From Eledone cirrhosa (lineage: Eukaryota): a stretch of 64,000 bases of DNA. Position numbers and translations under genes: made by a program. Location: contig OZ024744.1 of NCBI GenBank assembly GCA_964016885.1, forward strand, positions 54,622,001-54,686,000. The letters run 5' to 3'. The notes under the pieces are model-generated. The model searched no databases. It was not told where the DNA came from and saw nothing but the letters and a program-made list of their open reading frames with translations. Below, piece after piece: positions 10,033-64,000 of this stretch (the first letter of the stretch is position 1; each line of letters begins with the position of its first letter).

Positions 10033-10661
10033 AATTATTTCCACGGTTCTTCATGCAATCGAGATGTCCTTCATGCATTTGCTGTTGGTTATGAGAACGG
10101 TTTCCTCAGATGAAAACCGATGTTTGATATGTCGCTGGCTGGAAAAACACACGTCCTAATGCCTGTGTGCCCAACAGACATATGAGTTTTTGAAGGGTTT
10201 GCCCGCCGCCATGTTTGCTAGAAAAAACTATCAACGAAAAAGACGAAAAGAACGAAGAACTGTGTAGCCAAAACCCAGTAGACAGTGGAAGCAAAAAATG
10301 GACCTCTAAGGGAGGGTATATTTTGTTGACAACCAACTATAGACAACAACAACAACAACAACGACGACAACAACAACGGCAATAACAGCAAACCGCCGAC
10401 CAATATTGTCCACACTGGCCGCAATCGTCGTAGTGATATTACCACCCTACTGACAACAACTAAAGCAACAGCTACAATAAACACTTACAACAACAACAGC
10501 AACAACGACAACAACAGCAAAAACAGACCAGCGTCGTGTATACAGGCCGCAACAGTCGTAGTGACGGCATCACCCTGTCGACAATAACAGCGATAACGTC
10601 AAAACCCGGGATGAAATTAACATCATTCATACCCCCAGGAAGACACTGATAGGTTTCGACG

Positions 10662-11405
10662 GTGAGCTCTGAACTAGGAGAGCGTGGCCGGACAATTTCA
10701 CATCACGATGGGTCGAGTGACTCGGCGCAGGTTACTGACCTGGTGGGCCTCTACATCCTCAGGAACCTGAAAAGCGAGATCCCATCGGTAGGCGGTGGAA
10801 TATACCGCGACGATGCGTTGTTTACGCTATTCGACCACAGCAACATCATGATAAATAAGACTAGAAAAAGCTTAATTAGATTTTTCAAAAACCTAGGCCT
10901 CAGCATAGACATAGAAAATAATAGAAAGATAGTCAACTTCCTGGATGTTACCCTCAATCTAGAATCCGGCCTCTACTACCCGTACCACAAGCCGAACGAA
11001 TGCCTCAAGTACGTAAATGCCAACTCCAACCATCCTGGGTCAGTCAGGAGAGCCATAGTTAATAGCGTATCCCGTAGAATTTCTTCTCTGTTAGCTAGCC
11101 AGGAAACCTTCAATATCGTAGCTATCTATTATAATAATGCCCTTAATAATTCAGGTTACAAGGAAGGAATTAAGTTTATACCTAGTCTAATGAATTACGG
11201 TACCACTGACAGTAACACATCGGTAGCAATCAACGACGGGATCATCACGACTAGGACTTCATTACTCATCCCTAATACCACACTACAGAGTAATCCTGGA
11301 GGAACTGCTAACCATGGCTTATTACGAAGGGACAGGACCTCGCCTACTTTGGAAAACAAGGAAGCCGACACGGTGGAGCCGCGGAGGACATGTGTGGGCC
11401 CGTAG
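10662..11405 (+). pseudogene. Penelope-like RT fragment (YRDD type)
   Basis: DSAQVTDLVGLYIL..GIYRDD..NFLDVTLNL..YYPYHKPN..YVNANSNHP..RRIS..YNNALNNSGY; the C-terminal part loses similarity. Confidence 0.85.
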
Positions 11406-11553
11406 TAAGCGTGGAAGGTACGAACCGCTTCCCTCGCTATGAACGGAGACCACTCAGTTCGGGGTGCTCCGATCGGCTTAACCAACCCCACGGGGGGGGG
11501 GGGGGCATGGCTCTCCCAGTCGTCCGCAGCGAATATGTAACACATACTCTGAC

Positions 11554-12245
11554 GGATTCACCGAACTTTTATTATAATGCTCGGTGTGTTTGTAAACGAA
11601 AAACGGAAAAAATGAAATGGAATGGAATTTCCCACTCTTAGTACGGCATTATAATAAATGTTCAGTGAATCCATACGTACATATATATATGTGTGCATGT
11701 ATGTATATATATATACATACTACTGTACGTCTGTATACATATATGTATGTACGTGTACATACTTATATTTAAGTAACAGCCGTACTAAGAGTCGGAAATG
11801 AAATTTCGTTTCATTTTTTCCGTTTATCGTTTTCGGTACCCAGGCCGATTAACTCACTCGATATGCAAATTGGGCTACTCAGCCGTTAATATGCATAAGG
11901 TAAGTATATACGTTCAACAATCTGGCAGGAAGGTATACGTTGCTGACGATAGCTAATAAGCTTGAAACTAGTACAGCGTTCCTTTGTCAGTGTTGAACAA
12001 ACGAGCAACGATGGTTGCTAGACACTACGGCTTAATACGGGATGTCTGTTTACAAACACACCGAGCATTATAATAAATGTTCGGTGAATCCATACGTACA
12101 TATATATATGTGTGCATGTATGTATATATATATACATACTACTGTACGCCTGTATACATATATGTATGTACGTGTACATACTTATATTTAAGTAACAGCC
12201 GTACTAAGAGTGGGAAATGAAATTTCGTTTCATTTTTTCCGTTTA
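11554..12245 (+). mobile_element. PLE pseudo-LTR-like unit: HHR plus tail, with direct and inverted partial copies
   Basis: 11646-11825 is a direct repeat of 12065-12245; 11554-11597 and 11601-11647 are reverse complements of 12048-12091 and 12199-12244. Confidence 0.75.
11938..11978 (+). ncRNA. Minimal type I hammerhead ribozyme
   Basis: CGTTG-CTGACGA-t-AGCT aata AGCT-t-GAAA-CTAG-TA-CAGCG, palindromic stem III; stem I extends as an imperfect rod 11912-11998 (GTTCAACA/TGTTGAAC). Confidence 0.85.
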
Positions 12246-12271
12246 TATATATATATAATATATATATATAT

Positions 12272-13837: not shown

Positions 13838-16800
13838 CAGTACCACCACAGTACCACCACAGTACCACCACACTACCACCACACTACCACCACAGTACCA
13901 CCACAGTACCATCACACTACCAACACACTACCACCACAGTACCACCACAGTACCACCAGACTACCACCACAGTACCACCACACTACTACCACAGTACCAC
14001 CACACTACCACCACACTACCACCACACTACCACCACACTACCATCACACTACCAACACACTACCACCACATTACCACCACTGTACCACCAGACTACCACC
14101 ACAGTACCACCACACTACTGCCACAGTACCACCACACGACCACCACGCTACCACCACACTACCACCACAGTACCACCACACTACCACCACAGTACCACCA
14201 CAGTACCACCACAGTACAACCATACTACCAACACACTACCACCACACTACCACCACACTACCACCACACTACCACCGAACTACCACCACAGTACAACCAC
14301 ACTACCACCACAGTACCACCACACTACCACCACACTACCACCACAGTACCACCACACTACCACCACACTATCACCAGAGTACCACCACACTACCACCACA
14401 CTATCACCAGAGTACCACCACAATACCACCACACTACCACCACACAACCACCACACTACCACCACAGTACCACCACAGTACCACCACAGTACCACTATGC
14501 TACCACCACAGTACCTCCACACTACCTCCACACTACCACCACAGTACCATCACACTACCACCACAGTACCACCACAGTACCACCACAGTACCATCACAGT
14601 ACCACCACAGCACCACCACACTACCACCACACTACCACCACAGTACCATCACACTAACACCACACTACCACCACACTACCACCACAGTACCACCACAGTA
14701 CCACCACAGTACCACCACACTACCACCACAGTACCACCACAGTACCATCACACTACCACCACACTACCACCACACTACCACCACAGTACCACCACACTAC
14801 CACCACAGTACCACCACAGTACCACCACTCTACCACCACACTACCACCAATCTACCACCACAGTACCACCACACTACCACCACACTACCACCACAGTACC
14901 CCCAATCTACCACCACAGTACCACCACACTACCACCACATGACCGTCACACTACCACCACAGTACCACCACACTACCACCACACTACCGCCACACTACCA
15001 CCACAGTACCACCACAGTACCATCACAGTACCACCACAGTACCACCACACTACAACTACACTACCATCACACTACCACCACAGTACCACCACACTACCAA
15101 CAAACTACCACCACAGTACCACCACACTACCACCACACTACCACCACAGTGCCACCACAGTACCACCACACTACCACCACAGTACCACCACAGTACCATC
15201 ACAGTACCACCACAGTACCACCACACTACAACTACACTACTATCCCACTACCACCACAGTACCACCACACTACCACCACACTACCACCACAGTGCCACCA
15301 CAGTACCATCACAGTACCACCACACTACCACCACACTACCACCACACTACCACCACAGTGCCATCACAGTACCACCACACTACCACCACACTACCACCAC
15401 ACTACCACCACAGTGCCATCACAGTACCACCACACTACAACCACACTACCACCACACTACCACCACACTACCAACACACTACCACCACAGTACCACCACA
15501 CTACCACCACACTACCACCAAACTACCACCACAGTACCACCACAGTACCACCACACTACCACTACAGTACCACCACACTACCACCCCACTATCACCACAC
15601 TACCACCACAGTGCCACCACAGTACCACCACACTACCACAACTGTACCACCACACTACCAGCACATTATCACCACACTACCACCACAGTGCCACCACAGT
15701 ACCACCACACTACCACCACACTACCACCACACTACCATCACACTACCACCACACTACCACCAGAGTACCACCACACTACCACCACACTACCACCACGCTA
15801 CCACCACACTACCACTACAATACCACCACAGTACCACCACAGTACCACCACACTACCACCACAGTACTACCATAGTACCACCACAGTGCCACCACAGTAC
15901 CACCACACTACCACCACACTACCACCACACTACCACCAAACTACCACCACACTACCACCACACTACCACCCCAGTACCACCACACTACCACCCCAGTACC
16001 ACCACACTACCACCACACTACCACCACAGTACCATCACAGTACCACCACACTACCACCACAGTAACACCACCACAGTACCACCACACTACCACCACAGTA
16101 CCACCACACTACCACCACAGTACCACCACAGTACCACCACACTACCACCACAGTACCACCACACTACCACCACACTACCACCACAGTACCATCACAGTAC
16201 CACCACAGTACCACCACAGTAACACCACCACAGTACCACCACACTACCACCACACTACCACCACAGTACCACCACAGTACCATCACAGTACCACCACAGC
16301 ACCACCACACTACCACCACACTACCACCACAGTACCACCACACTACCACCACACTACCACCACAGTACCACCACAGTACCACCACAGTACCATCACACTA
16401 CCACCACACTACCACCACAGTACCACCACAGTACCATCACACTACCACCACACTACCACCACAGTACCACCACAGTACCACCACACTACCACCACAGTAC
16501 CACCACAGTACCACCACTCTACCACCACACTACCACCAAACTACCACCCCAGTACCACCACACTACCACCAATCTACCACCACAGTACCACCACACTACC
16601 ACCACATGACCGTCACACTACCACCACAGTACCACCACACTACCACCACACTACCGCCACACTACCACCACAGTACCACCACAGTACCATCACAGTACCA
16701 CCACAGTACCACCACACTACAACTACACTACCATCACACTACCACCACAGTACCACCACACTACCAACAAACTACCACCACAGTACCACCACACTACCAG

Positions 16801-19800
16801 CACACTACCACCACAGTGCCACCACAGTACCACCACACTACCACCACAGTACCACCACAGTACCATCACAGTACCACCACAGTACCACCACACTACAACT
16901 ACACTACTATCCCACTACCACCACAGTACCACCACACTACCACCACACTACCACCACAGTGCCACCACACTACCACCACACTACCACCACAGTGCCATCA
17001 CAGTACCACCACACTACAACCACACTACCACCACACTACCACCACACTACCAACACACTACCACCACCACAGTACCACCACACTACCACCACACTACCAC
17101 CACAGTACCACCCCACTACCACCACAGTACCACCACACTACCACCACACTACCACCACTCTACCACCACAGTACCACAACAGTACCACCACAGTACCACC
17201 ACACTAACAACACATTACCACCATACTACCACCACACTACCACCTCAGTACCACCACAGTACCATCACACTACCACCACACTACCGCCACACTACCACCA
17301 CAGTACCACCACACTACCACCACACTACTGCCACACTACCACCACAGTACCACCACAGTACCATCACACTACCACCACACTACCACCAAACTACCACCAC
17401 ACTACCACCACACTACAACCACAGTACCACCACACTACCACCAAACTACCACCACACTACCACCACACTACCACCACACTACCACCACACTACCACCACA
17501 GTACCACCACACTACCACCACACTACCACCACAGTACCACCACACTACCACCACAGTACCACCACACTACCCCCACACTACCACCTACCTACCACCACAG
17601 TACCACCACACTACCACCACACTACCACCACACTACCACCACACTACCACCTACCTACCACCACAGTACCACCACAGTACCACCACAGTACCACCACACT
17701 ACCACCACATTACCACCATACTACCACCACACTACCACCTCAGTACCACCACAGTACCACCACACTACCACCACACTACCGCCACACTACCACCACAGTA
17801 CCACCACACAACCACCACACTACCGCCACACTACCACCACAGTACCACCACAGTACCATCACAGTACCACCACAGTACCACCACACTACCACTACACTAC
17901 CATCACACTACCACCACAGTACCACCGCACTACCACCACAGTACCACCGCACTACTACCACAGTACCACCACACTACCACTACAGTACCACCGCACTACT
18001 ACCACATTACCACCACACTACCACCACAGTACCACCACAGTACCACCACTCTACCACCACACTACCACCAAAGTACCACCACACTACCACCACAGTACCT
18101 CCAAAGTACCACTAACTACCACCACACTACCACCACACTACCACCACACTACCACCACAGTACCACCACACTACCACCACACTACCACCACAGTACCACC
18201 ACAGTACCATCACACTAACACCACACTACCACCACACTACCACCACAGTACCACCACAGTACCACCACAGTACCACCACACTACCACCACAGTACCACCA
18301 CAGTACCATCACACTAACACCACACTACCACCACAGTACCACCACAGTACCACCACACTACCACCACAGTACCACCACAGTACCACCACTCTACCACCAC
18401 ACTACCACCAAACTACCACCCCAGTACCACCACACTACCACCACAGTACCACCACACTACCACCACATGACCGTCACACTACCACCACAGTACCACCACA
18501 GTACCATCACAGTACCACCACACTACCACCACACTACCGCCACACTACCACCACAGTACCACCACACTACCATCACAGTACCACCACACTACCACCACAC
18601 TACCGCCACACTACCACCACAGTACCACCACACTACCATCACAGTACCACCACACTACCACCACACTACCGCCACACTACCACCACAGTACCGCCACAGT
18701 ACCATCACAGTACCACCACAGTACCACCACACTACAACTACACTACCACCACAGTGCCACCACAGTACCACCACACTACCATCACAGTACCACCTCACTA
18801 CAACCACACTACCACCACACTACCACCACACTACCACCACAGTACCACCACACTACCACCACACTACCACCAAACTACCACCACAGTACCACCACAGTAC
18901 CACCACAGTACCACTACAGTACCACCACACTACCACCCCACTATCACCACACTACCACCACAGTGCCACCACAGTACCACCACACTACCACAACTGTACC
19001 ACCACACTACCACCACATTATCACCACACTACCACCACAGTGCCACCACAGTACCACCACACTACCACCACACTACCACCACACTACCATCACACTACCA
19101 CCACACTACCACCAGAGTACCACCACACTACCACCACACTACCACCACGCTACCACCACAGTACCACTACAATACCACCACAGTACCACCACAGTACCAC
19201 CACACTACCACCACAGTACTACCATAGTACCACCACAGTGCCACCACAGTACCACCACACTACCACCACAGTACTACCATAGTACCACCACAGTGCCACC
19301 ACAGTACCACCACACTACCAGCACAGTACCACCACACTACCACCACACTACCACCAAACTACCACCACACTATTACCACACTACCACCCCAGTACCACCA
19401 CACTACCACCACAGTACCACCACACTACCACCACACTACCACCACACTACCACCACAGTACCACCACACTACCACCACAGTACCACCACAGTACCACCAC
19501 ACTACCACCACTCTACCACCACAGTAGCACCACAGTACCACCACACTACCACCACACTACCACCACACTACCACCACACTACCACCACACTACCACCTCA
19601 GTACCACCACAGTACCACCAAACTACCACCACACTACCGCCACACTACCACCACAGTACCAACACACTACCACCACACTACCGCTACACTACCACCACAG
19701 TACGGCCACAGTACCATCACAGTACCACCACAGTACCACCACACTACCACTACACTACCACTACACTACCATCACACTACCACCACACTACCACCACAGT

Positions 19801-22800
19801 ACCACCACAGTACCACCACACAACCACCACACTACCACCACAGTACCACCACAGTACCACCACAGTGTCACCACAGTACCGCCACACTACCACCACAGTA
19901 CCACCACAGTACCACCACAGTACCACCACACTACCACCTCAGTAACACCACACTACCACCACAGTACCACCACAGTAGCACCACAGTACCACCACAGTAC
20001 CACCACAGTACCACCACAGTACCACCACACTACCGCCAAACTACCACCACAGTACCACCACACTACCACCACAGTACCACCACACTACCAACAAACTACC
20101 ACCACAGTACCACCACAGTACCACCACACTACCACCACACTACCACCACAGTACCCTCACACTACCACCGCACTACCACCACAGTACCACCACACTACCA
20201 CCACACTACCACCACAGTACCACTACAGTACCACTACAGTACCACAACAGTACCACAACAGTACCACCAGAGTACCACCACAGTACCACCACAGTACCAC
20301 CACACTACCACCACACTACCACCAATCTACCACCACAGTACCACCACATTACCACCACAGTACCACCACAGTACCACCACACTACCACCACACTACCACC
20401 ACAGTACCACCACAGTACCACCACAGTACCACCACACTACCGCCACACTACCACCACAGTACCACCACACTACCACCACAGTACCACCACATGACCGTCA
20501 CACTACCACCACAGTACCACCACACTACCACCACACTACCGCCACACTACCACCACAGTACCACCACAGTACCATCACAGTACCACCACAGTACCACCAC
20601 ACTACAACTACACTACCATCACACTACCACCACAGTACCACCACACTACCAACAAACTACCACCACAGTACCACAACACTACCACCACACTACCACCACA
20701 GTTCCACCACAGTACCACCACACTACCACCACACTACCACCACAGTGCCACCACACTACCACCACACTACCACCACAGTGCCATCACAGTACCACCACAC
20801 TACAACCACACTACCACCACACTACCACCACACTACCACCACACTACCACCAAACTACCACCACAGTACCACCACAGTACCACCACATTACCACTACAGT
20901 ACCACCACACTACCACCCCACTATCACCACACTACCACCACAGTGCCACCACAGTACCACCACACTACCACAACTGTACCACCACACTACCAGCACATTA
21001 TCACCACACTACCACCACAGTGCCACCACAGTACCACCACACTACCACCACACTACCACCACACTACCATCACACTACCACCACACTACCACCAGAGTAC
21101 CACCACACTACCACCACACTACCACCACGCTACCACCACACTACCACTACAATACCACCACAGTACCACCACAGTACCACCACACTACCACCACAGTAAT
21201 ACCATAGTACCACCACAGTGCCACCACAGTACCACCACACTACCACCACAGTACCACCACACTACCACCACACTACCACCAAACTACCACCACACTACCA
21301 CCACACTACCACCCCAGTACCACCACACTACCACCACAGTACCACCACACTACCACCACACTACCACCACAGTACCATCACAGTACCACCACACTACCAC
21401 CACAGTAACACCACCACACTACCGCCACACTACCACCACAGTACCACCACACTACCACCACACTACTGCCACACTACCACCACAGTACCACCACAGTACC
21501 ATCACACTACCACCACACTACCACCAAACTACCACCACACTACCACCACACTACAACCACAGTACCACCACACTACCACCAAACTACCACCACACTACCA
21601 CCACACTACCACCACACTACCACCACACTACCACCACAGTACCACCACACTACCACCACACTACCACCACAGTACCACCACACTAACACCACACTACCTC
21701 CACACTACCAACACATACCGCCACACTAACACCACACTAATTCCACACTACCACCACACTACCACCACAGTACTACCACAGTACCACCACACTACCACCA
21801 CACTACCACCACAGTACCTCTACAGTACCACTACACTACCACCACACTACCACCAAAGTACCACCACACTACCACCACATTACCACAACAGTACCACCAC
21901 AGTACCACCACAGTACCACCACACTACCACCACACTACCACCACAGTGCCACCACACTACCACCACACTACCACCACAGTGCCATCACAGTACCACCACA
22001 CTACAACCACACTACCACCACACTACCACCACACTACCAACACACTACCACCACAGTACCACCACACTACCACCACACTACCACCAAACTACCACCACAG
22101 TACCACCACAGTACCACCACACTACCACTACAGTACCACCACACTACCACCCCACTATCACCAGACTACCACCACAGTGCCACCACAGTACCACCACACT
22201 ACCACCACACTACCACCACACTACCATCACACTACCACCACACTACCACCAGAGTACCACCACACTACCACCACACTACCACCACACTACCACTACAATA
22301 CCACCACAGTACCACCACAGTACCACCACACTACCACCACAGTACTACCATAGTACCACCACAGTGCCACCACAGTACCACCACACTACCACCACACTAC
22401 CACCACACTACCACCAAACTACCACCACAGTACCACCACAGTACCACCCCAGTACCACCACACTACCACCACAGTACCACCACACTACCACCACACTACC
22501 ACCACAGTACCATCACAGTACCACCACACTACCACCACAGTAACACCACCACAGTACCACCACACTACCACCACAGTACCACCACACTACCACCACAGTA
22601 CCACCACAGTACCACCACACTACCACCACAGTACCACCACACTACCACCACACTACCACCACAGTACCCCCACTCTACCACCACACTACCACCACACTAC
22701 CACCACAGTACCACCACAGTACCACCACAGTACCACCACAGTACCACCACACTACCACCACTCTACCACCACAGTGCCACCACAGTACCACCACACTACC

Positions 22801-25800
22801 ACCACACTACCACCAAACTACCACCACACTACCAACAAACTACCACCACAGTACCACCACAGTACCACCACACTACCACCACAGTACCACCACACTACCA
22901 CCACACTACCACCACACTACCATCACACTACTACCACACTACCACCAGAGTACCACCACACTACCACCACAGTACCACCACACTACCACCACGCTACCAC
23001 CACACTACCACTACAATACCACCACAGTACCACCACAGTACCACCACACTACCACCACAGTACTACCATAGTACCACCACAGTGCCACCACAGTACCACC
23101 ACACTACCACCACAGTACCACCACACTACCACCACACTACCACCAAACTACCACCAATCTACCACCACAGTACCACCACATTACCACCAAAGTACCACCA
23201 AACTACCACCACACTACCACCACACTACCACCACAGTACCATCACACTTCCACCACAGTACCACCACACTACCACCACACTACCACCACACTACCATCAC
23301 ACTACCACCACACTACCACCAGAGTACCACCACACTACCACCACACTACCACCACGCTACCACCACACTACCACTACAATACCACCACAGTACCACCACA
23401 GTACCACCACACTACCACCACAGTACTACCATAGTACCACCACAGTGCCACCACAGTACCACCACACTACCACCACAGTACCACCACACTACCACCACAC
23501 TACCACCAAACTACCACCACACTACCACCACACTACCACCACAGTACCACCACACTACCACCACAGTACCACCACAGTACCACCACACTACCACCACAGT
23601 ACCACCACATTACCACCACACTACCACCACAGTACCACCACACTACCACCAAACTACCACCACACTACCACCACACTACCACCACAGTACCACCACACTA
23701 CCACCACACTACCACCACAGTAACACCACCACAGTACCACCACACTACCACCACACTACCACCACAGTACCACCACACTACCACCACTCTACCACCACAG
23801 TACCACCACAGTACCACCGCAGTACCACCACACTACCACCACACTACCACCACAGTAGCACCACCACAGTACCACCACACTACCACCACACTACCACCAC
23901 AGTACGACCACACTACCGCCACACTACCGCCACACTACCACCACAGTACCAACACACTACCACCACACTACCGCTACACTACCACCACAGTACGGCCACA
24001 GTACCATCACAGTACCACCACAGTACCACCACACTACCACTACACTACCACTACACTACCATCACACTACCACCACACTACCACCACAGTACCACCACAG
24101 TACCACCACACAACCACCACACTACCACCACAGTACCACCACAGTACCACCACAGTGTCACCACAGTACCGCCACACTACCACCACAGTACCACCACAGT
24201 ACCACCACAGTACCACCACACTACCACCTCAGTAACACCACACTACCACCACAGTACCACCACAGTAGCACCACAGTACCACCACACTACCGCCACACTA
24301 CCACCACAGTACCACCACACTACCACCACAGTACCACCACACTACCAACAAACTACCACCACAGTACCACCACAGTACCACCACACTACCACCACACTAC
24401 CACCACAGTACCCTCACACTACCACCGCACTACCACCACAGTACCACCACACTACCACCATACTACCACCACAGTACCACTACAGTACCACTACAGTACC
24501 ACAACAGTACCACAACAGTACCACCAGAGTACCACCACAGTACCACCACAGTACCACCACACTACCACCACACTACCACCAATCTACCACCACAGTACCA
24601 CCACATTACCACCACAGTACCACCAAACTACCACCACACTACCACCACACTACCACCACAGTACCACCACAGTACCACCACAGTACCACCACACTACCGC
24701 CACACTACCACCACAGTACCACCACACTACCACCACAGTACCACCACATGACCGTCACACTACCACCACAGTACCACCACACTACCACCACACTACCGCC
24801 ACACTACCACCACAGTACCACCACAGTACCATCACAGTACCACCACAGTACCACCACACTACAACTACACTACCATCACACTACCACCACAGTACCACCA
24901 CACTACCAACAAACTACCACCACAGTACCACAACACTACCACCACACTACCACCACAGTTCCACCACAGTACCACCACACTACCACCACAGTACCACCAC
25001 AGTACCACCACAGTACCACCAGACTACAACTACACTACTATCACACTACCACCACAGTACCACCACACTACCACCACACTACCACCACAGTGCCACCACA
25101 CTACCACCACACTACCACCACAGTGCCATCACAGTACCACCACACTACAACCACACTACCACCACACTACCACCACACTACCACCACACTACCACCAAAC
25201 TACCACCACAGTACCACCACAGTACCACCACATTACCACTACAGTACCACCACACTACCACCCCACTATCACCACACTACCACCACAGTGCCACCACAGT
25301 ACCACCACACTACCACAACTGTACCACCACACTACCAGCACATTATCACCACACTACCACCACAGTGCCACCACAGTACCACCACACTACCACCACACTA
25401 CCACCACACTACCATCACACTACCACCACACTACCACCAGAGTACCACCACACTACCACCACACTACCACCACGCTACCACCACACTACCACTACAATAC
25501 CACCACAGTACCACCACAGTACCACCACACTACCACCACAGTACTACCATAGTACCACCACAGTGCCACCACAGTACCACCACACTACCACCACAGTACC
25601 ACCACACTACCACCACACTACCACCAAACTACCACCACACTACCACCACACTACCACCCCAGTACCACCACACTACCACCACAGTACCACCACACTACCA
25701 CCACACTACCACCACAGTACCATCACAGTACCACCACACTACCACCACAGTAACACCACCACACTACCGCCACACTACCACCACAGTACCACCACACTAC

Positions 25801-26551
25801 CACCACACTACTGCCACACTACCACCACAGTACCACCACAGTACCATCACACTACCACCACACTACCACCAAACTACCACCACACTACCACCACACTACA
25901 ACCACAGTACCACCACACTACCACCAAACTACCACCACACTACCACCACACTACCACCACACTACCACCACACTACCACCACAGTACCACCACACTACCA
26001 CCACACTACCACCACAGTACCACCACACTACCACCACAGTACCACCACACTACCACCACAGTACCACCACACTAACACCACACTACCTCCACACTACCAA
26101 CACATACCGCCACACTAACACCACACTAATTCCACACTACCACCACACTACCACCACAGTACTACCACAGTACCACCACACTACCACCACACTACCACCA
26201 CAGTACCTCTACAGTACCACTACACTACCACCACACTACCACCAAAGTACCACCACACTACCACCACATTACCACAACAGTACCACCACAGTACCACCAC
26301 AGTACCACCACACTACCACCACAGTACCACCACACTACCACCACACTACCACCACAGTACCCCCACTCTACCACCACACTACCACCACATTACCACCACA
26401 CTACCACCACAGTACCACCAGACTATCAACACAGTACCACCACAGTACCACCACAGTACCACCACACTACCACCACACTACCACCAGACTACCAACACAG
26501 TATCACCACAGTACCACCACTCTACCACCACACTACTACCACAGTACCACA
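13838..26551. repeat. 12.7-kb tandem satellite, 11-bp unit TACCACCACA(C/G)
   Basis: Continuous array of taccaccacac and taccaccacag with scattered variants; recurring variant blocks show higher-order duplication. Confidence 0.97.
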
Positions 26552-61232: not shown

Positions 61233-61420
61233 TGTATACATGTTTAAGTATATATTTAAATCTAAATATATATATATATATTTAGGTTTGTTGGTTTACC
61301 ACTTGATAGAACTGGTCATTCCGTATGGTCAACCTCGATGTAATATTATGGAGAGCACTCAACGTAATGCAACTCACCCGTCTTCGTTTGTGTAGTTGGT
61401 GGTGCGAGTTCGGAGTTAAT

Positions 61421-61658
61421 TATTATAAAACAACAGGAGGCTGGACTGGTGTAAATCCTTGAAAGGTTTATTATACTATGATCATTTCAATGACCGGGTT
61501 CAGTATGAATCTGGTGACATCATCAGGTATTCGAAATATAATTTGTTATATTTCGAATACCTGATGATGTCACTGGATTCATACTGAACCCAGTCATTGA
61601 AATGATCATAGTATAATAAACCTTTTAAGGAATTACACCAGTCCAGCATCCTGTTATT

Positions 61659-61666
<8 letters not shown>
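61421..61666. repeat. Near-perfect 246-bp palindrome with one hammerhead per arm (61473-61530 minus; 61557-61614 plus)
   Basis: Arms ~121 bp, 4-nt loop; ATAC-CTGATGA-tgtcactggattcatactgaacccagtcatt-GAAA-TGATCA-TA-GTAT. Confidence 0.88.
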
Positions 61667-61695
<29 letters not shown>

Positions 61696-61907
61696 GTTTA
61701 AAATGTACATCCACATATGTATACTGAAATACTAGTATGCATATGAATACACACACGTGTACATATGTAGATGTACCGAGTTTTTCACTGGACACTTTAC
61801 TGTGAGTGTTCAGCTAGTCTGTATGTAAACACAGACAAACCGGTTTTTAGAGTCATACTGGTTTTCGAGGAAACACCTTTCCTCTATTCTTCAGAAAGCC
61901 AGACAGG

Positions 61908-61952
61908 AATATTGGACTAGTTTCGATGTTGTTACATCTCATCAGCAACATT
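61908..61952 (-). ncRNA. Inverted copy of the 62321 hammerhead
   Basis: Same sequence with one A>G change giving a G-U wobble in stem I. Confidence 0.9.
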
Positions 61953-62320
61953 TACCTATCCTCCGGCCTTTCTAGAGAATCGTAAAAGCACATATCGTTA
62001 TATGCTTTTTCTATGAAAATTAGTAGTGGGCAGACTAATTTGCATAGAGCGTGAGTACGTACCGGTTCAGCGGAGACGATAAAAACAAATAACGAAACGA
62101 AATTAAATTTCGCTTCGTTTGTAACTCACTTTTGTATGACTGACGCTTAAACAATTAAGTTAAAAATGTACATCTACATATGCATACTGAAATACTAGTG
62201 TGCATATGAATACACACACGTGTACATATGTAGATGTACCGAGTTTTTCATAATTTTCATAGAAAAAGCATATAACGATATGTGCTTTTACGATTCTCTA
62301 GAAAGGCCGGAGGATAGGTA

Positions 62321-62365
62321 AATATTGCTGATGAGATGTAACAACATCGAAACTAGTCCAATATT
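62321..62365 (+). ncRNA. Minimal type I hammerhead ribozyme, fully canonical
   Basis: AATATTG-CTGATGA-GATGT aaca ACATC-GAAA-CTAG-TC-CAATATT: 7-bp stem I, G-C closed stem II, palindromic stem III, GUC triplet. Confidence 0.92.
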
Positions 62366-62764
62366 CCTGTCTGGCTTTCTGGAGAATAGAGGAAAGGTGT
62401 TTCCTCGAAAACCAGTATGACTCTAAAAACCGGTTTGTCTGTGTTTACATACAGACTAGCTGAACACTCACAGTAAAGTGTCCAGTGAAAAACTCGGTAC
62501 ATCTACATATGTACACGTGTGTGTATTCATATGCATACTAGTATTTCAGTATACATATGTGGATGTACATTTTTAACTTAATTGTTTAAGCGTCAGTCAT
62601 ACAAAAGTGAGTTACAAACGAAGCGAAATTTAATTTCGTTTCGTTATTTGTTTTTATATATATATATATATATATAGTAAAACATTGAACGGGAACAAAA
62701 CATAGAGGCAGTACGAACAAAGGTTTATTAGTTTCACGCTCTTGAGAGTGGGGTGGTGGTGGGG

Positions 62765-62798
62765 AACGACGTTTCGGGCATAAGCCCTTCTTCAGGTG
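62765..62798 (-). ncRNA. Ultra-minimal PLE-type hammerhead
   Basis: Minus strand: ac-CTGAAGA-a-GGGC ttat GCCC-GAAA-CG-TC-gt. Confidence 0.75.
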
Positions 62799-62929
62799 AA
62801 AAGTGTGGGAAGAGAGTTCCAAGGGTGTGTAGGGGAGTGGTGGAGAGACATATAGAAAAAAGGGGGTGAGAGGAAACGGTACAAATGAAATTAAATATAA
62901 AAGCATAATAAAAATAAAAATAAACATGA

Positions 62930-63873
62930 AGTAAAACAGGTGGTGGAAGGGTGTGGGGCGTGTAGGGGTGGTGGCGGGTGGAGTGGGGAGAGGGAAGCGG
63001 GTGTCCGAGCGTGGAGGGCTGAAGGTGGTGTGTGTGTGTAGGTGTACGTGTGTGTGTATGTGAAAGTAAGAGTTGGGGGAAGAACGGGGATTGCATGTTC
63101 AGGAAAAGGTGTGTGGGGGTGGGGTGTAGGTCGGCGTGTGTGGATGGGGAGGGGTCAGAGGGGTGGGGGTAGAGGATTCCGGAGGCTAAGTGTGTAAATA
63201 TGTGGTGGTATGCACGTGTGTGTGGTGTTTATACGTGTTGTGGATGTAGGTGGCGTGTGGGAAAAAAAATGTTTGAGTGTATGTCAGTGGGTGAGTCCCT
63301 AAGGTAGTTCCGTAGAGGATGTAGTGGGATGCTGGGTAATTTCCGTGTGATGTGGTTGATTCTTGGGAGCGATGTCCAATGTGTGTAATCCGTGGTTGGG
63401 TTGGTCGGAAGAGGGGAGATGTGGGGTGCGCGCGCAACAGGAAGTGGTCAGAGGGTCAAGGCAGGCGGAGGGTTGTGTGTCTGTGTGTGGGGGGAGGTGG
63501 TTAGAGATTCAGGGCATAGCAGCAGTCCAGGAGAATGGTAAGTGAAGAAAGTCGGTGTGTCAGTGTGTGCGGATTTGCGGTGGACGGGGGAGAGGATGGG
63601 TAGGTGTGAAAGTTGGAGTGAGGAGGGGGGGTTGTATTAGTAGAGGTGTTAGTGGGATGTGTGTGTGTGGGTGGAGCGGGGAGGGGGAGGGGGAGAGAAA
63701 GGTGTGGGGGCCGGTGGAGTGAGTGTAGTGTACTGGTGTGTGTGTGCGTGTTTGGATGAGTGTGTGTAGTGAAGGGGGTGTTAGTGGAGGTCAATGGTGG
63801 TAGGGTGTGTAGAGTGGGTGGTGTAAGTAGGTGTGTGTGGGGTTGGGGGGGGTTAGTGATATTAGTTGCGTGT

Positions 63874-63904
<31 letters not shown>

Positions 63905-64000
63905 TTAGTGATGTTAGTTGCGGGGTGGTGGGGTGGATATGTGGGGCTGAGGGTTAGTGGTGGTAGTAGGGTGTGTGTTTAGTGTGAGCGTGTGTATATA
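62930..64000. repeat. G/T-rich low-complexity region upstream (minus strand) of the 62765 HHR
   Basis: Strong G+T skew with (GT)n and G runs; possibly the UTR/pLTR of a PLE. Confidence 0.5.

What the first reader, a model, noticed from the sequence alone, without database searches (positions are those of the whole stretch)
61690..62657. Young three-block inverted element with canonical hammerheads on both strands
Seen: ~330-bp inverted copies with few differences, a 172-bp inverted tail block between them, a textbook HHR, (TA)n flanks and no ORF. Five HHRs from three families cluster within 61473-62798. Inference: recent activity and clustered insertion into (TA)n-rich sites; the best candidate for functional tests.
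Basis: partly seen in the sequence, partly recalled or inferred. Interest (0 to 1): 0.75.

Follow-up and report, generated by a model that had tools for sequence, protein, structure and literature searches.

The report
Two-armed ribozyme repeat, Penelope-style insertion
This is one small copy, among more than two thousand in this animal genome, of a non-coding repeat carrying a predicted self-cutting RNA; its two back-to-back arms end at two different fixed points, as nearly all such copies do, which suggests that a Penelope-type jumping-gene enzyme likely copied the same RNA from both sides of a DNA cut.

Summary
The repeats are real but the 'three blocks' are two arms of one 463-466-nt circularly permuted unit, joined head to head at 62250/62251: a 561-nt minus arm ending at unit position 225 ('short' end) and a 407-nt plus arm ending at 299 ('long' end), both into (TA)n. 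It is a non-LTR retrozyme with at least 2,368 insertions in G000. Of 102 two-armed insertions, 89 pair one short with one long end, 3 short-short, 0 long-long. Arms of one insertion share rare variants, and intact Hydra-clade Penelope-like elements here show the same pairing (7 of 7), a Neptune-like family none (0 of 11). The hammerhead covaries but has a 1-bp helix III (dimer-type); each strand has only one, masked by the antisense arm in read-through RNA, so this locus is a poor test candidate. Cleavage, expression, circular RNA and the exact partner were not shown. Retrozymes, PLE tails and their link are published; the strict end coupling was not found in the papers read. This scan noted the same pattern before on other DNA of this genome.

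The parts
61690..62250 (-). Short-end arm: unit positions 128-463 then 1-225 (561 nt, 1.2 units); 3' end ...AACTTAATT runs into (TA)n
   Evidence: (L001)
62251..62657 (+). Long-end arm: unit positions 356-463 then 1-299 (407 nt); 3' end ...GTTTTTAT runs into (TA)n
   Evidence: (L001)
62250..62251 (.). Head-to-head junction of the two 5'-truncated arms; blunt, no overlap and no added bases
62312..62372 (+). Type I hammerhead: helix I 7 bp + UA bulge + distal stem, core CUGAUGA at 62328, helix II 5 bp, helix III 1 bp with CUAG loop, predicted cut after GUC at 62358
61901..61961 (-). Second copy of the hammerhead (core at 61945, predicted cut between 61915 and 61914); one private A>G gives a G-U pair in helix I
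62584..62657 (+). 74-nt 'tail' (unit 226-299) between the short and long end sites, with a 13-bp hairpin; second copy at 62079-62152 (-) inside the other arm
61665..61689 (.). (TA)n tract, left flank, shared with the neighbouring family-B element
62658..62676 (.). (TA)n tract, right flank, shared with the neighbouring family-C element
61280..61664 (.). Neighbour, family B: separate head-to-head insertion with two hammerhead-like cores, long end left and short end right; its long tail resembles the tail of Hydra-clade elements by eye
62677..64000 (-). Neighbour, family C: 3' part of a Neptune-like PLE (continues about 2.1 kb beyond the window), hammerhead core at 62795 with only 2 bp of helix I

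Best explanation
This is a two-armed insertion of a non-coding, hammerhead-bearing ~465-nt repeat (a non-LTR retrozyme), likely written into a (TA)n tract by a borrowed Penelope-like RT/GIY-YIG enzyme, probably of the Hydra clade, that likely primed both cut DNA ends on RNA from one source. Shown: unit, two arms, fixed ends at unit positions 225/230 and 299, TA flanks, random 5' truncation, one short with one long end, arms more alike than other copies. Inferred: the enzyme cuts both strands of (TA)n; one end primes at the long site and the other at the short site 69-74 nt upstream, with 1-2 nt of TA pairing; each cDNA runs a variable distance, usually through the ribozyme cut site (so the template is a ligated circle or an uncut multimer); the two cDNAs are joined head to head. 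Each insertion leaves (TA)n on both sides, which regenerates targets and explains the three-family cluster. Cleavage would need two hammerheads (dimer) and so would come from multi-unit loci, not from this one.
For: Unit and arms. Copy number: 1,633 exact 31-nt cores, 2,368 exact long ends, 1,156 exact short ends, controls 0. All 100 long-end and 53 short-end matches in C1:1-121 Mb were fetched, plus some loci to 164 Mb: 102 two-armed insertions = 89 long/short, 3 short/short (2 fetched because of that), 0 long/long, 6 with a non-standard end, 4 cut by the fetch; 11 of 45 one-strand clusters carry a tiny arm of the opposite type, none of the same type. By coordinates alone 31 of 32 pairs, P 7e-9. 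182 of 196 ends run into TA. Arms of one insertion: mean 0.8% apart; 63 of 67 closer than 95% of other copies; 53 rare variants shared by both arms; in the window both arms share a 2% variant. 26 of 86 insertions, and the window, cannot be fold-back copies of either arm. 131 of 172 arms cross the cut site. Hydra-clade family with intact 894-aa ORF (RWK, DKT, CxCx5C; criteria from PMC8557442 section 11): 7 of 7 two-armed loci pair short and long ends about 100 nt apart; family B 4 of 4; Neptune-like family 0 of 11 two-armed. Hammerhead: 6 of 16 pairs with changes on both sides, 95% paired, slid controls at most 52%. Two RT start sites delimiting the tail, extension of both strands and a predicted dimer are shown in vitro for a Poseidon PLE (PMC11167929).
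Against: No autonomous element with this tail or unit was found; two apparent Hydra/retrozyme chimeras were nested insertions split by TA. Poseidon-, Nematis- and Naiad-type families were not tested for the same footprint. Arm similarity could partly come from later gene conversion between inverted arms. In the window the two copies of unit 128-225 in one arm differ at 3 polymorphic sites, which a single monomeric circle does not predict; several long arrays show higher-order periods (L071, L080, L140), so array length alone does not prove rolling-circle copying. 60 of 86 insertions are also compatible by length with fold-back. No cleavage or expression data.
Confidence: 0.75

Rival explanations
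1. One priming event followed by fold-back (self-priming) synthesis: the first cDNA snaps back at a hairpin and is copied, and the endonuclease trims the second strand at the short site.
For: Self-priming at palindromic junctions was proposed for PLEs (PMC3846280 Discussion passage). About 10 of 86 junctions overlap by 25 nt or more, mostly at the two hairpins, and 5' ends are enriched at unit 251-275 (22 vs 9.9). It explains arm identity and one-tail asymmetry.
Against: 26 of 86 insertions and the window have arms neither of which is contained in the other; the short arm is the longer one in 44 of 86; most junctions have 0-10 nt overlap or small insertions; the window junction is blunt.
Confidence: 0.1
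2. Two-ended priming by a non-Hydra PLE (Poseidon, Nematis, Naiad) or by several families.
For: No sequence homology of the tail to the Hydra families examined; other PLE-type ORFs occur in fetched loci; tails and inverted arms are general PLE features (PMC8557442 passages).
Against: Hydra elements are reported to insert into (TA)n and show the identical footprint here; the TA-targeting Neptune-like family does not.
Confidence: 0.25
3. A DNA-level inverted duplication (fold-back/MITE-like element, replication error or assembly artefact) of a satellite unit.
For: Long near-perfect inverted repeats are hard to assemble; the window's own junction was not seen bridged in the listed contig pieces (inconclusive).
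Against: Outer ends fixed at two different unit positions, inner junctions variable, arms unequal and not mirror images, same pattern at about 100 dispersed loci and in coding PLEs.
Confidence: 0.03

Closest known systems
Metazoan non-LTR retrozymes (Cervera and de la Pena 2020, PMC7229834, passages seen; Li, Clavereau, Pollet 2026, bioRxiv 10.64898/2026.07.22.740005, parts 1-3 of 5 read)
   Same: Non-coding tandem unit of a few hundred nt, low GC, one type I hammerhead per unit, dimers to long multimers; helix III of one pair capped by a palindromic tetraloop as in axolotl HHR_Amex1, which needs dimers; proposed to be non-autonomous PLE derivatives.
   Different: Unit 463-470 nt, slightly above the 150-450 range quoted; insertions are mostly head-to-head two-armed with two fixed ends in (TA)n ('inverted' does not occur in the 2020 text; not described in the parts of the 2026 preprint read); no pLTR homology to a PLE found here; RNA and circles not shown.
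Endonuclease-bearing Penelope-like elements, Hydra clade (Craig et al. 2021, PMC8557442, section 11 and passages; Arkhipova et al. 2013, PMC3846280, passages)
   Same: [quoted passage not shown]
   Different: No ORF; tail 69-74 nt rather than 30-40; coupling of short and long ends is nearly strict and was counted here.
Poseidon PAc of Anolis (Frangieh et al. 2024, PMC11167929, parts 1-2 of 4 read)
   Same: Two internal RT start sites that delimit the tail; AT-rich targets; both strands cut and extended; hammerhead weak on its own.
   Different: That study saw no strand preference of start sites in bulk and, in the parts read, did not address whether the two ends of one insertion use different sites; here they almost always do.

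Membership tests
Non-LTR retrozyme | Tandem unit of a few hundred nt with one type I hammerhead per unit | tested here: met
   463-470-nt units, arrays up to 20+; this locus holds only 1.2 + 0.9 units
Non-LTR retrozyme | No coding capacity, no LTR/PBS/PPT organisation | tested here: met
   longest internal ORF 49 aa; the terminal redundancy is unit permutation; PBS/PPT not searched separately
Non-LTR retrozyme | Self-cleavage of the RNA | not testable with these tools
   core conserved and helices covary; 5' ends only weakly enriched just 3' of the cut (18 vs 9.7, P 0.011 uncorrected for 19 bins)
Non-LTR retrozyme | Expression as linear and circular RNA | tested here: inconclusive
   no RNA holder listed; contigs show the unit-to-unit joint but cannot tell circle from tandem
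Type I hammerhead (canonical, monomer-active) | Core CUGANGA/GAAA/NUH with helices I and II | tested here: met
Type I hammerhead (canonical, monomer-active) | Stable helix III in the monomer | tested here: not met
   1 bp + CUAG; constrained catalytic fold -9.1 vs -16.5 kcal/mol for the alternative; intermolecular ACUAGU duplex -6.2
Penelope-like element, autonomous | RT plus GIY-YIG ORF | tested here: not met
PLE-mobilised insertion | Head-to-head inverted 5'-truncated copy, optional tail at one end, microsatellite target | tested here: met
Hydra-dependent non-autonomous element | Shared pLTR/tail sequence with an autonomous Hydra family | tested here: inconclusive
   no match at 75% over 40 nt in the Hydra loci fetched, a small sample of 37,871 first-look candidates; footprint is shared

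The most novel reading that the evidence does not exclude
A Hydra-clade PLE dimer loads on one RNA, here often a ribozyme-made circle, and primes the two ends of a cut in (TA)n at two non-equivalent fixed sites, so every complete insertion has one tailed and one tail-less arm; this would explain both the inverted structure of PLE insertions and how animal retrozyme circles enter genomes.
Probability: 0.4. Interest if true: 0.65.

Novelty: new variant of a known kind. Interest (0 to 1): 0.42.

Why it matters
How PLEs make their tandem/inverted insertions is named as an open question (PMC8557442 passage), and the retrozyme-PLE partnership rests on co-occurrence and pLTR similarity (preprint). 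A short RNA with thousands of young insertions and a near-strict rule coupling the two ends gives a compact substrate and a sharp prediction for an in vitro test. The locus itself is an ordinary, small member of the family.

Tried and rejected
RNA evidence: no RNA holder listed; 4 coded runs laid as contigs cover the unit (organism C about 96-97% alike) but say nothing on expression. Junction test: no listed contig piece bridged 62250/62251 in 4 runs of 2 samples (most records not shown, contigs break in repeats; no verdict on polymorphism or assembly). Hydra/retrozyme chimeras L117 and L120: rejected, separated by (TA)n. The window's PLE ORF fragment at 10653-11405 as partner: its family has a different 3' end and no match to the unit in 9 other copies. 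Autonomous ORFs upstream of family B: none in 8 loci. L1-type twin priming on one linear RNA (long arm stopping at the short site): only 5 of 86 long arms start at 226-236 (expected 2.0, P 0.054). Pile-up of 5' ends at the ribozyme cut: weak, not significant after correction, and confounded by helix I. Pfam gave no hit for the Hydra ORFs; Rfam miRNA hits are hairpin artefacts below gathering scores. One long/long pair by coordinates was two separate insertions. L253 was dropped as a duplicate of L252. Paper searches found no count of coupled short/long ends; supplements were not read and subscription papers are not searched.

Full report
Observation. The two inverted pairs are there: 61685-62022 with 62251-62588 (338 nt, 5 mismatches) and 62079-62250 with 62486-62657 (172 nt, 3 mismatches), plus a 103-nt direct repeat at spacing 463. 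Read on the minus strand from 62250 the sequence is a 463-nt unit plus 98 nt of its own start. Numbering the unit from the base after the predicted hammerhead cut, the minus arm is 128-463,1-225 (61690-62250) and the plus arm 356-463,1-299 (62251-62657). So there are two arms joined head to head, bluntly, each with its 3' end in (TA)n. No ORF above 49 aa lies inside.

Family. A DNA search of the own genome gave 1,253 candidates, with the best 97-99% identical and often in tandem arrays. Exact patterns give 1,633 copies of one 31-nt ribozyme core, 2,368 long ends followed by TA and 1,156 short ends followed by TA, with 0 in the reversed controls; the patterns differ in strictness, so the last two numbers are not a ratio. 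Units are 463-470 nt. A sister family about 65-70% alike sits at 11650-12250 of the window.

Ribozyme. Rfam HH9 matches both copies below its gathering score. Across 10 aligned variants of the two families 6 of 16 pairs change on both sides, 95% of cells pair, slid controls reach at most 52% (related sequences, so not a probability). A major subfamily swaps an A-U for U-A in helix II. Helix III is one pair with a palindromic CUAG loop; the catalytic fold costs about 7 kcal/mol against the alternative, and two molecules can form a 6-bp ACUAGU duplex. This is the amphibian-type motif that cleaves well only as a dimer (PMC7229834 passages). In a read-through transcript of either strand the ribozyme is fully paired with the antisense arm, and each strand has only one. 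The locus is therefore a poor assay candidate; in the 2026 preprint 1 of 9 dimer elements cleaved, so cleavage must not be assumed.

Insertion anatomy. I fetched every exact long-end (100) and short-end (53) match in C1:1-121 Mb, loci from the core list and some more to 164 Mb: 149 clusters, one a duplicate. Of 102 two-armed head-to-head insertions, 89 pair a long end (297-300) with a short end (220-230; 50 at 230, 33 at 225), 3 are short/short (2 picked for that reason, 1 a complex multi-arm), none long/long, 6 have a non-standard end and 4 were cut by the fetch; three of the cut ones resolve to long/short with neighbouring stretches. Of 45 one-strand clusters 11 carry a 10-25-nt second arm of the opposite type and none of the same type; the rest end in TA, other DNA or the fetch edge. 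The long end is left in 45 and right in 44. Inner junctions are spread over the unit, mostly with 0-10 nt overlap or small insertions. 182 of 196 outer ends run into TA.

Template. In 67 insertions with at least 100 shared positions the arms differ by 0.8% on average, against medians of 3-13% to other copies; 63 of 67 rank in the closest 5%, 50 of 67 are at least as close as the nearest other copy; 53 rare variants are in both arms and 145 in one. The window's arms share a variant seen in 2% of copies. Simple fold-back is impossible by length in 26 of 86 and in the window, possible in the other 60. 131 of 172 arms pass the ribozyme cut site, so the template was ligated or uncut there. Some arrays have identical units across both arms (L077 6 units, L297 9 units), as a monomeric circle predicts; others have higher-order periods pointing to later expansion (L071, L080, L140), and the window's short arm has two non-identical copies of 128-225. 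Circle versus multimer is therefore open.

Partner. The genome holds many Hydra-clade PLEs (37,871 first-look candidates), with intact ORFs of about 894 aa bearing RWK, DKT and CxCx5C (criteria). Of 11 loci of one such family, 7 are two-armed and all 7 pair a short with a long end about 100 nt apart. The left neighbour (family B, 61280-61664) does the same in 4 of 4 loci where both cores were seen among 15. The right neighbour (family C) belongs to an RT/GIY-YIG family that I label Neptune-like from its linker motif (label partly recalled); 0 of 11 loci had an inverted arm. No Hydra locus examined shares sequence with the unit, so Hydra is inferred from footprint and target only (about 60%).

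Cluster. Families B, this one and C abut through shared (TA)n tracts. Since each insertion leaves TA on both sides, targets persist and nest (inference).

Comparison and novelty. Non-LTR retrozymes, their proposed PLE dependence, inverted PLE copies, one-ended tails and two RT start sites are all in print. What I did not find in five searches and the passages read is head-to-head two-ended insertion for retrozymes and a near-strict coupling of unlike ends. I class it as a new variant of a known kind. Earlier notes of this scan reached the same reading on other loci of this genome; I saw them after forming and testing my own, and they are not independent support.

Verdict. Real, ordinary member of a very abundant family; the family-level footprint is mechanistically informative and testable. 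Interest 0.42.

Noticed in passing
window 10653-12250: 5'- and 3'-truncated Hydra-clade ORF fragment abutting, without TA, a short inverted piece and 1.4 units of a sister retrozyme family (about 420-476-nt unit, hammerhead core at about 11944). Deletion across a TA tract or a true chimera; not resolved.
   Followed up: partly
window 62023-62050 (-) and 62251-62260 (+); unit positions 333-364: A hairpin starting with ATGCAAAT is kept in both retrozyme families. Newt satellite 2 is recalled to use an octamer-containing snRNA-type promoter (from memory; not retrieved).
   Followed up: no
window 62750-62800 (-): Family C hammerhead core has only 2 bp of helix I; a perfect partner for the 5' strand (GTGAAA) lies about 30 nt further on, the same in 11 of 12 loci where the core was matched: possibly a variant fold or a decayed ribozyme.
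   Followed up: partly
window 13841-26550: 12.7-kb satellite of an 11-nt unit TACCACCACAC, about 1,150 copies, with extreme strand skew.
   Followed up: no
window 40055 (-): Another hammerhead-like core with a long helix II, similar to one seen in L122; a further family.
   Followed up: no
L085 (G000:C1 about 135,855,850-135,856,280): A near unit-length single copy without TA flanks, bounded by a 12-nt direct repeat: a different integration route or capture at a break.
   Followed up: no
L071, L080, L140, L293/L294: Long arrays with 4- or 6-unit higher-order periods: retrozyme insertions turning into satellites after integration.
   Followed up: partly
run X6 (organism C): A second coded organism holds the whole unit at about 96-97% identity with the unit-to-unit joint.
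   Followed up: no
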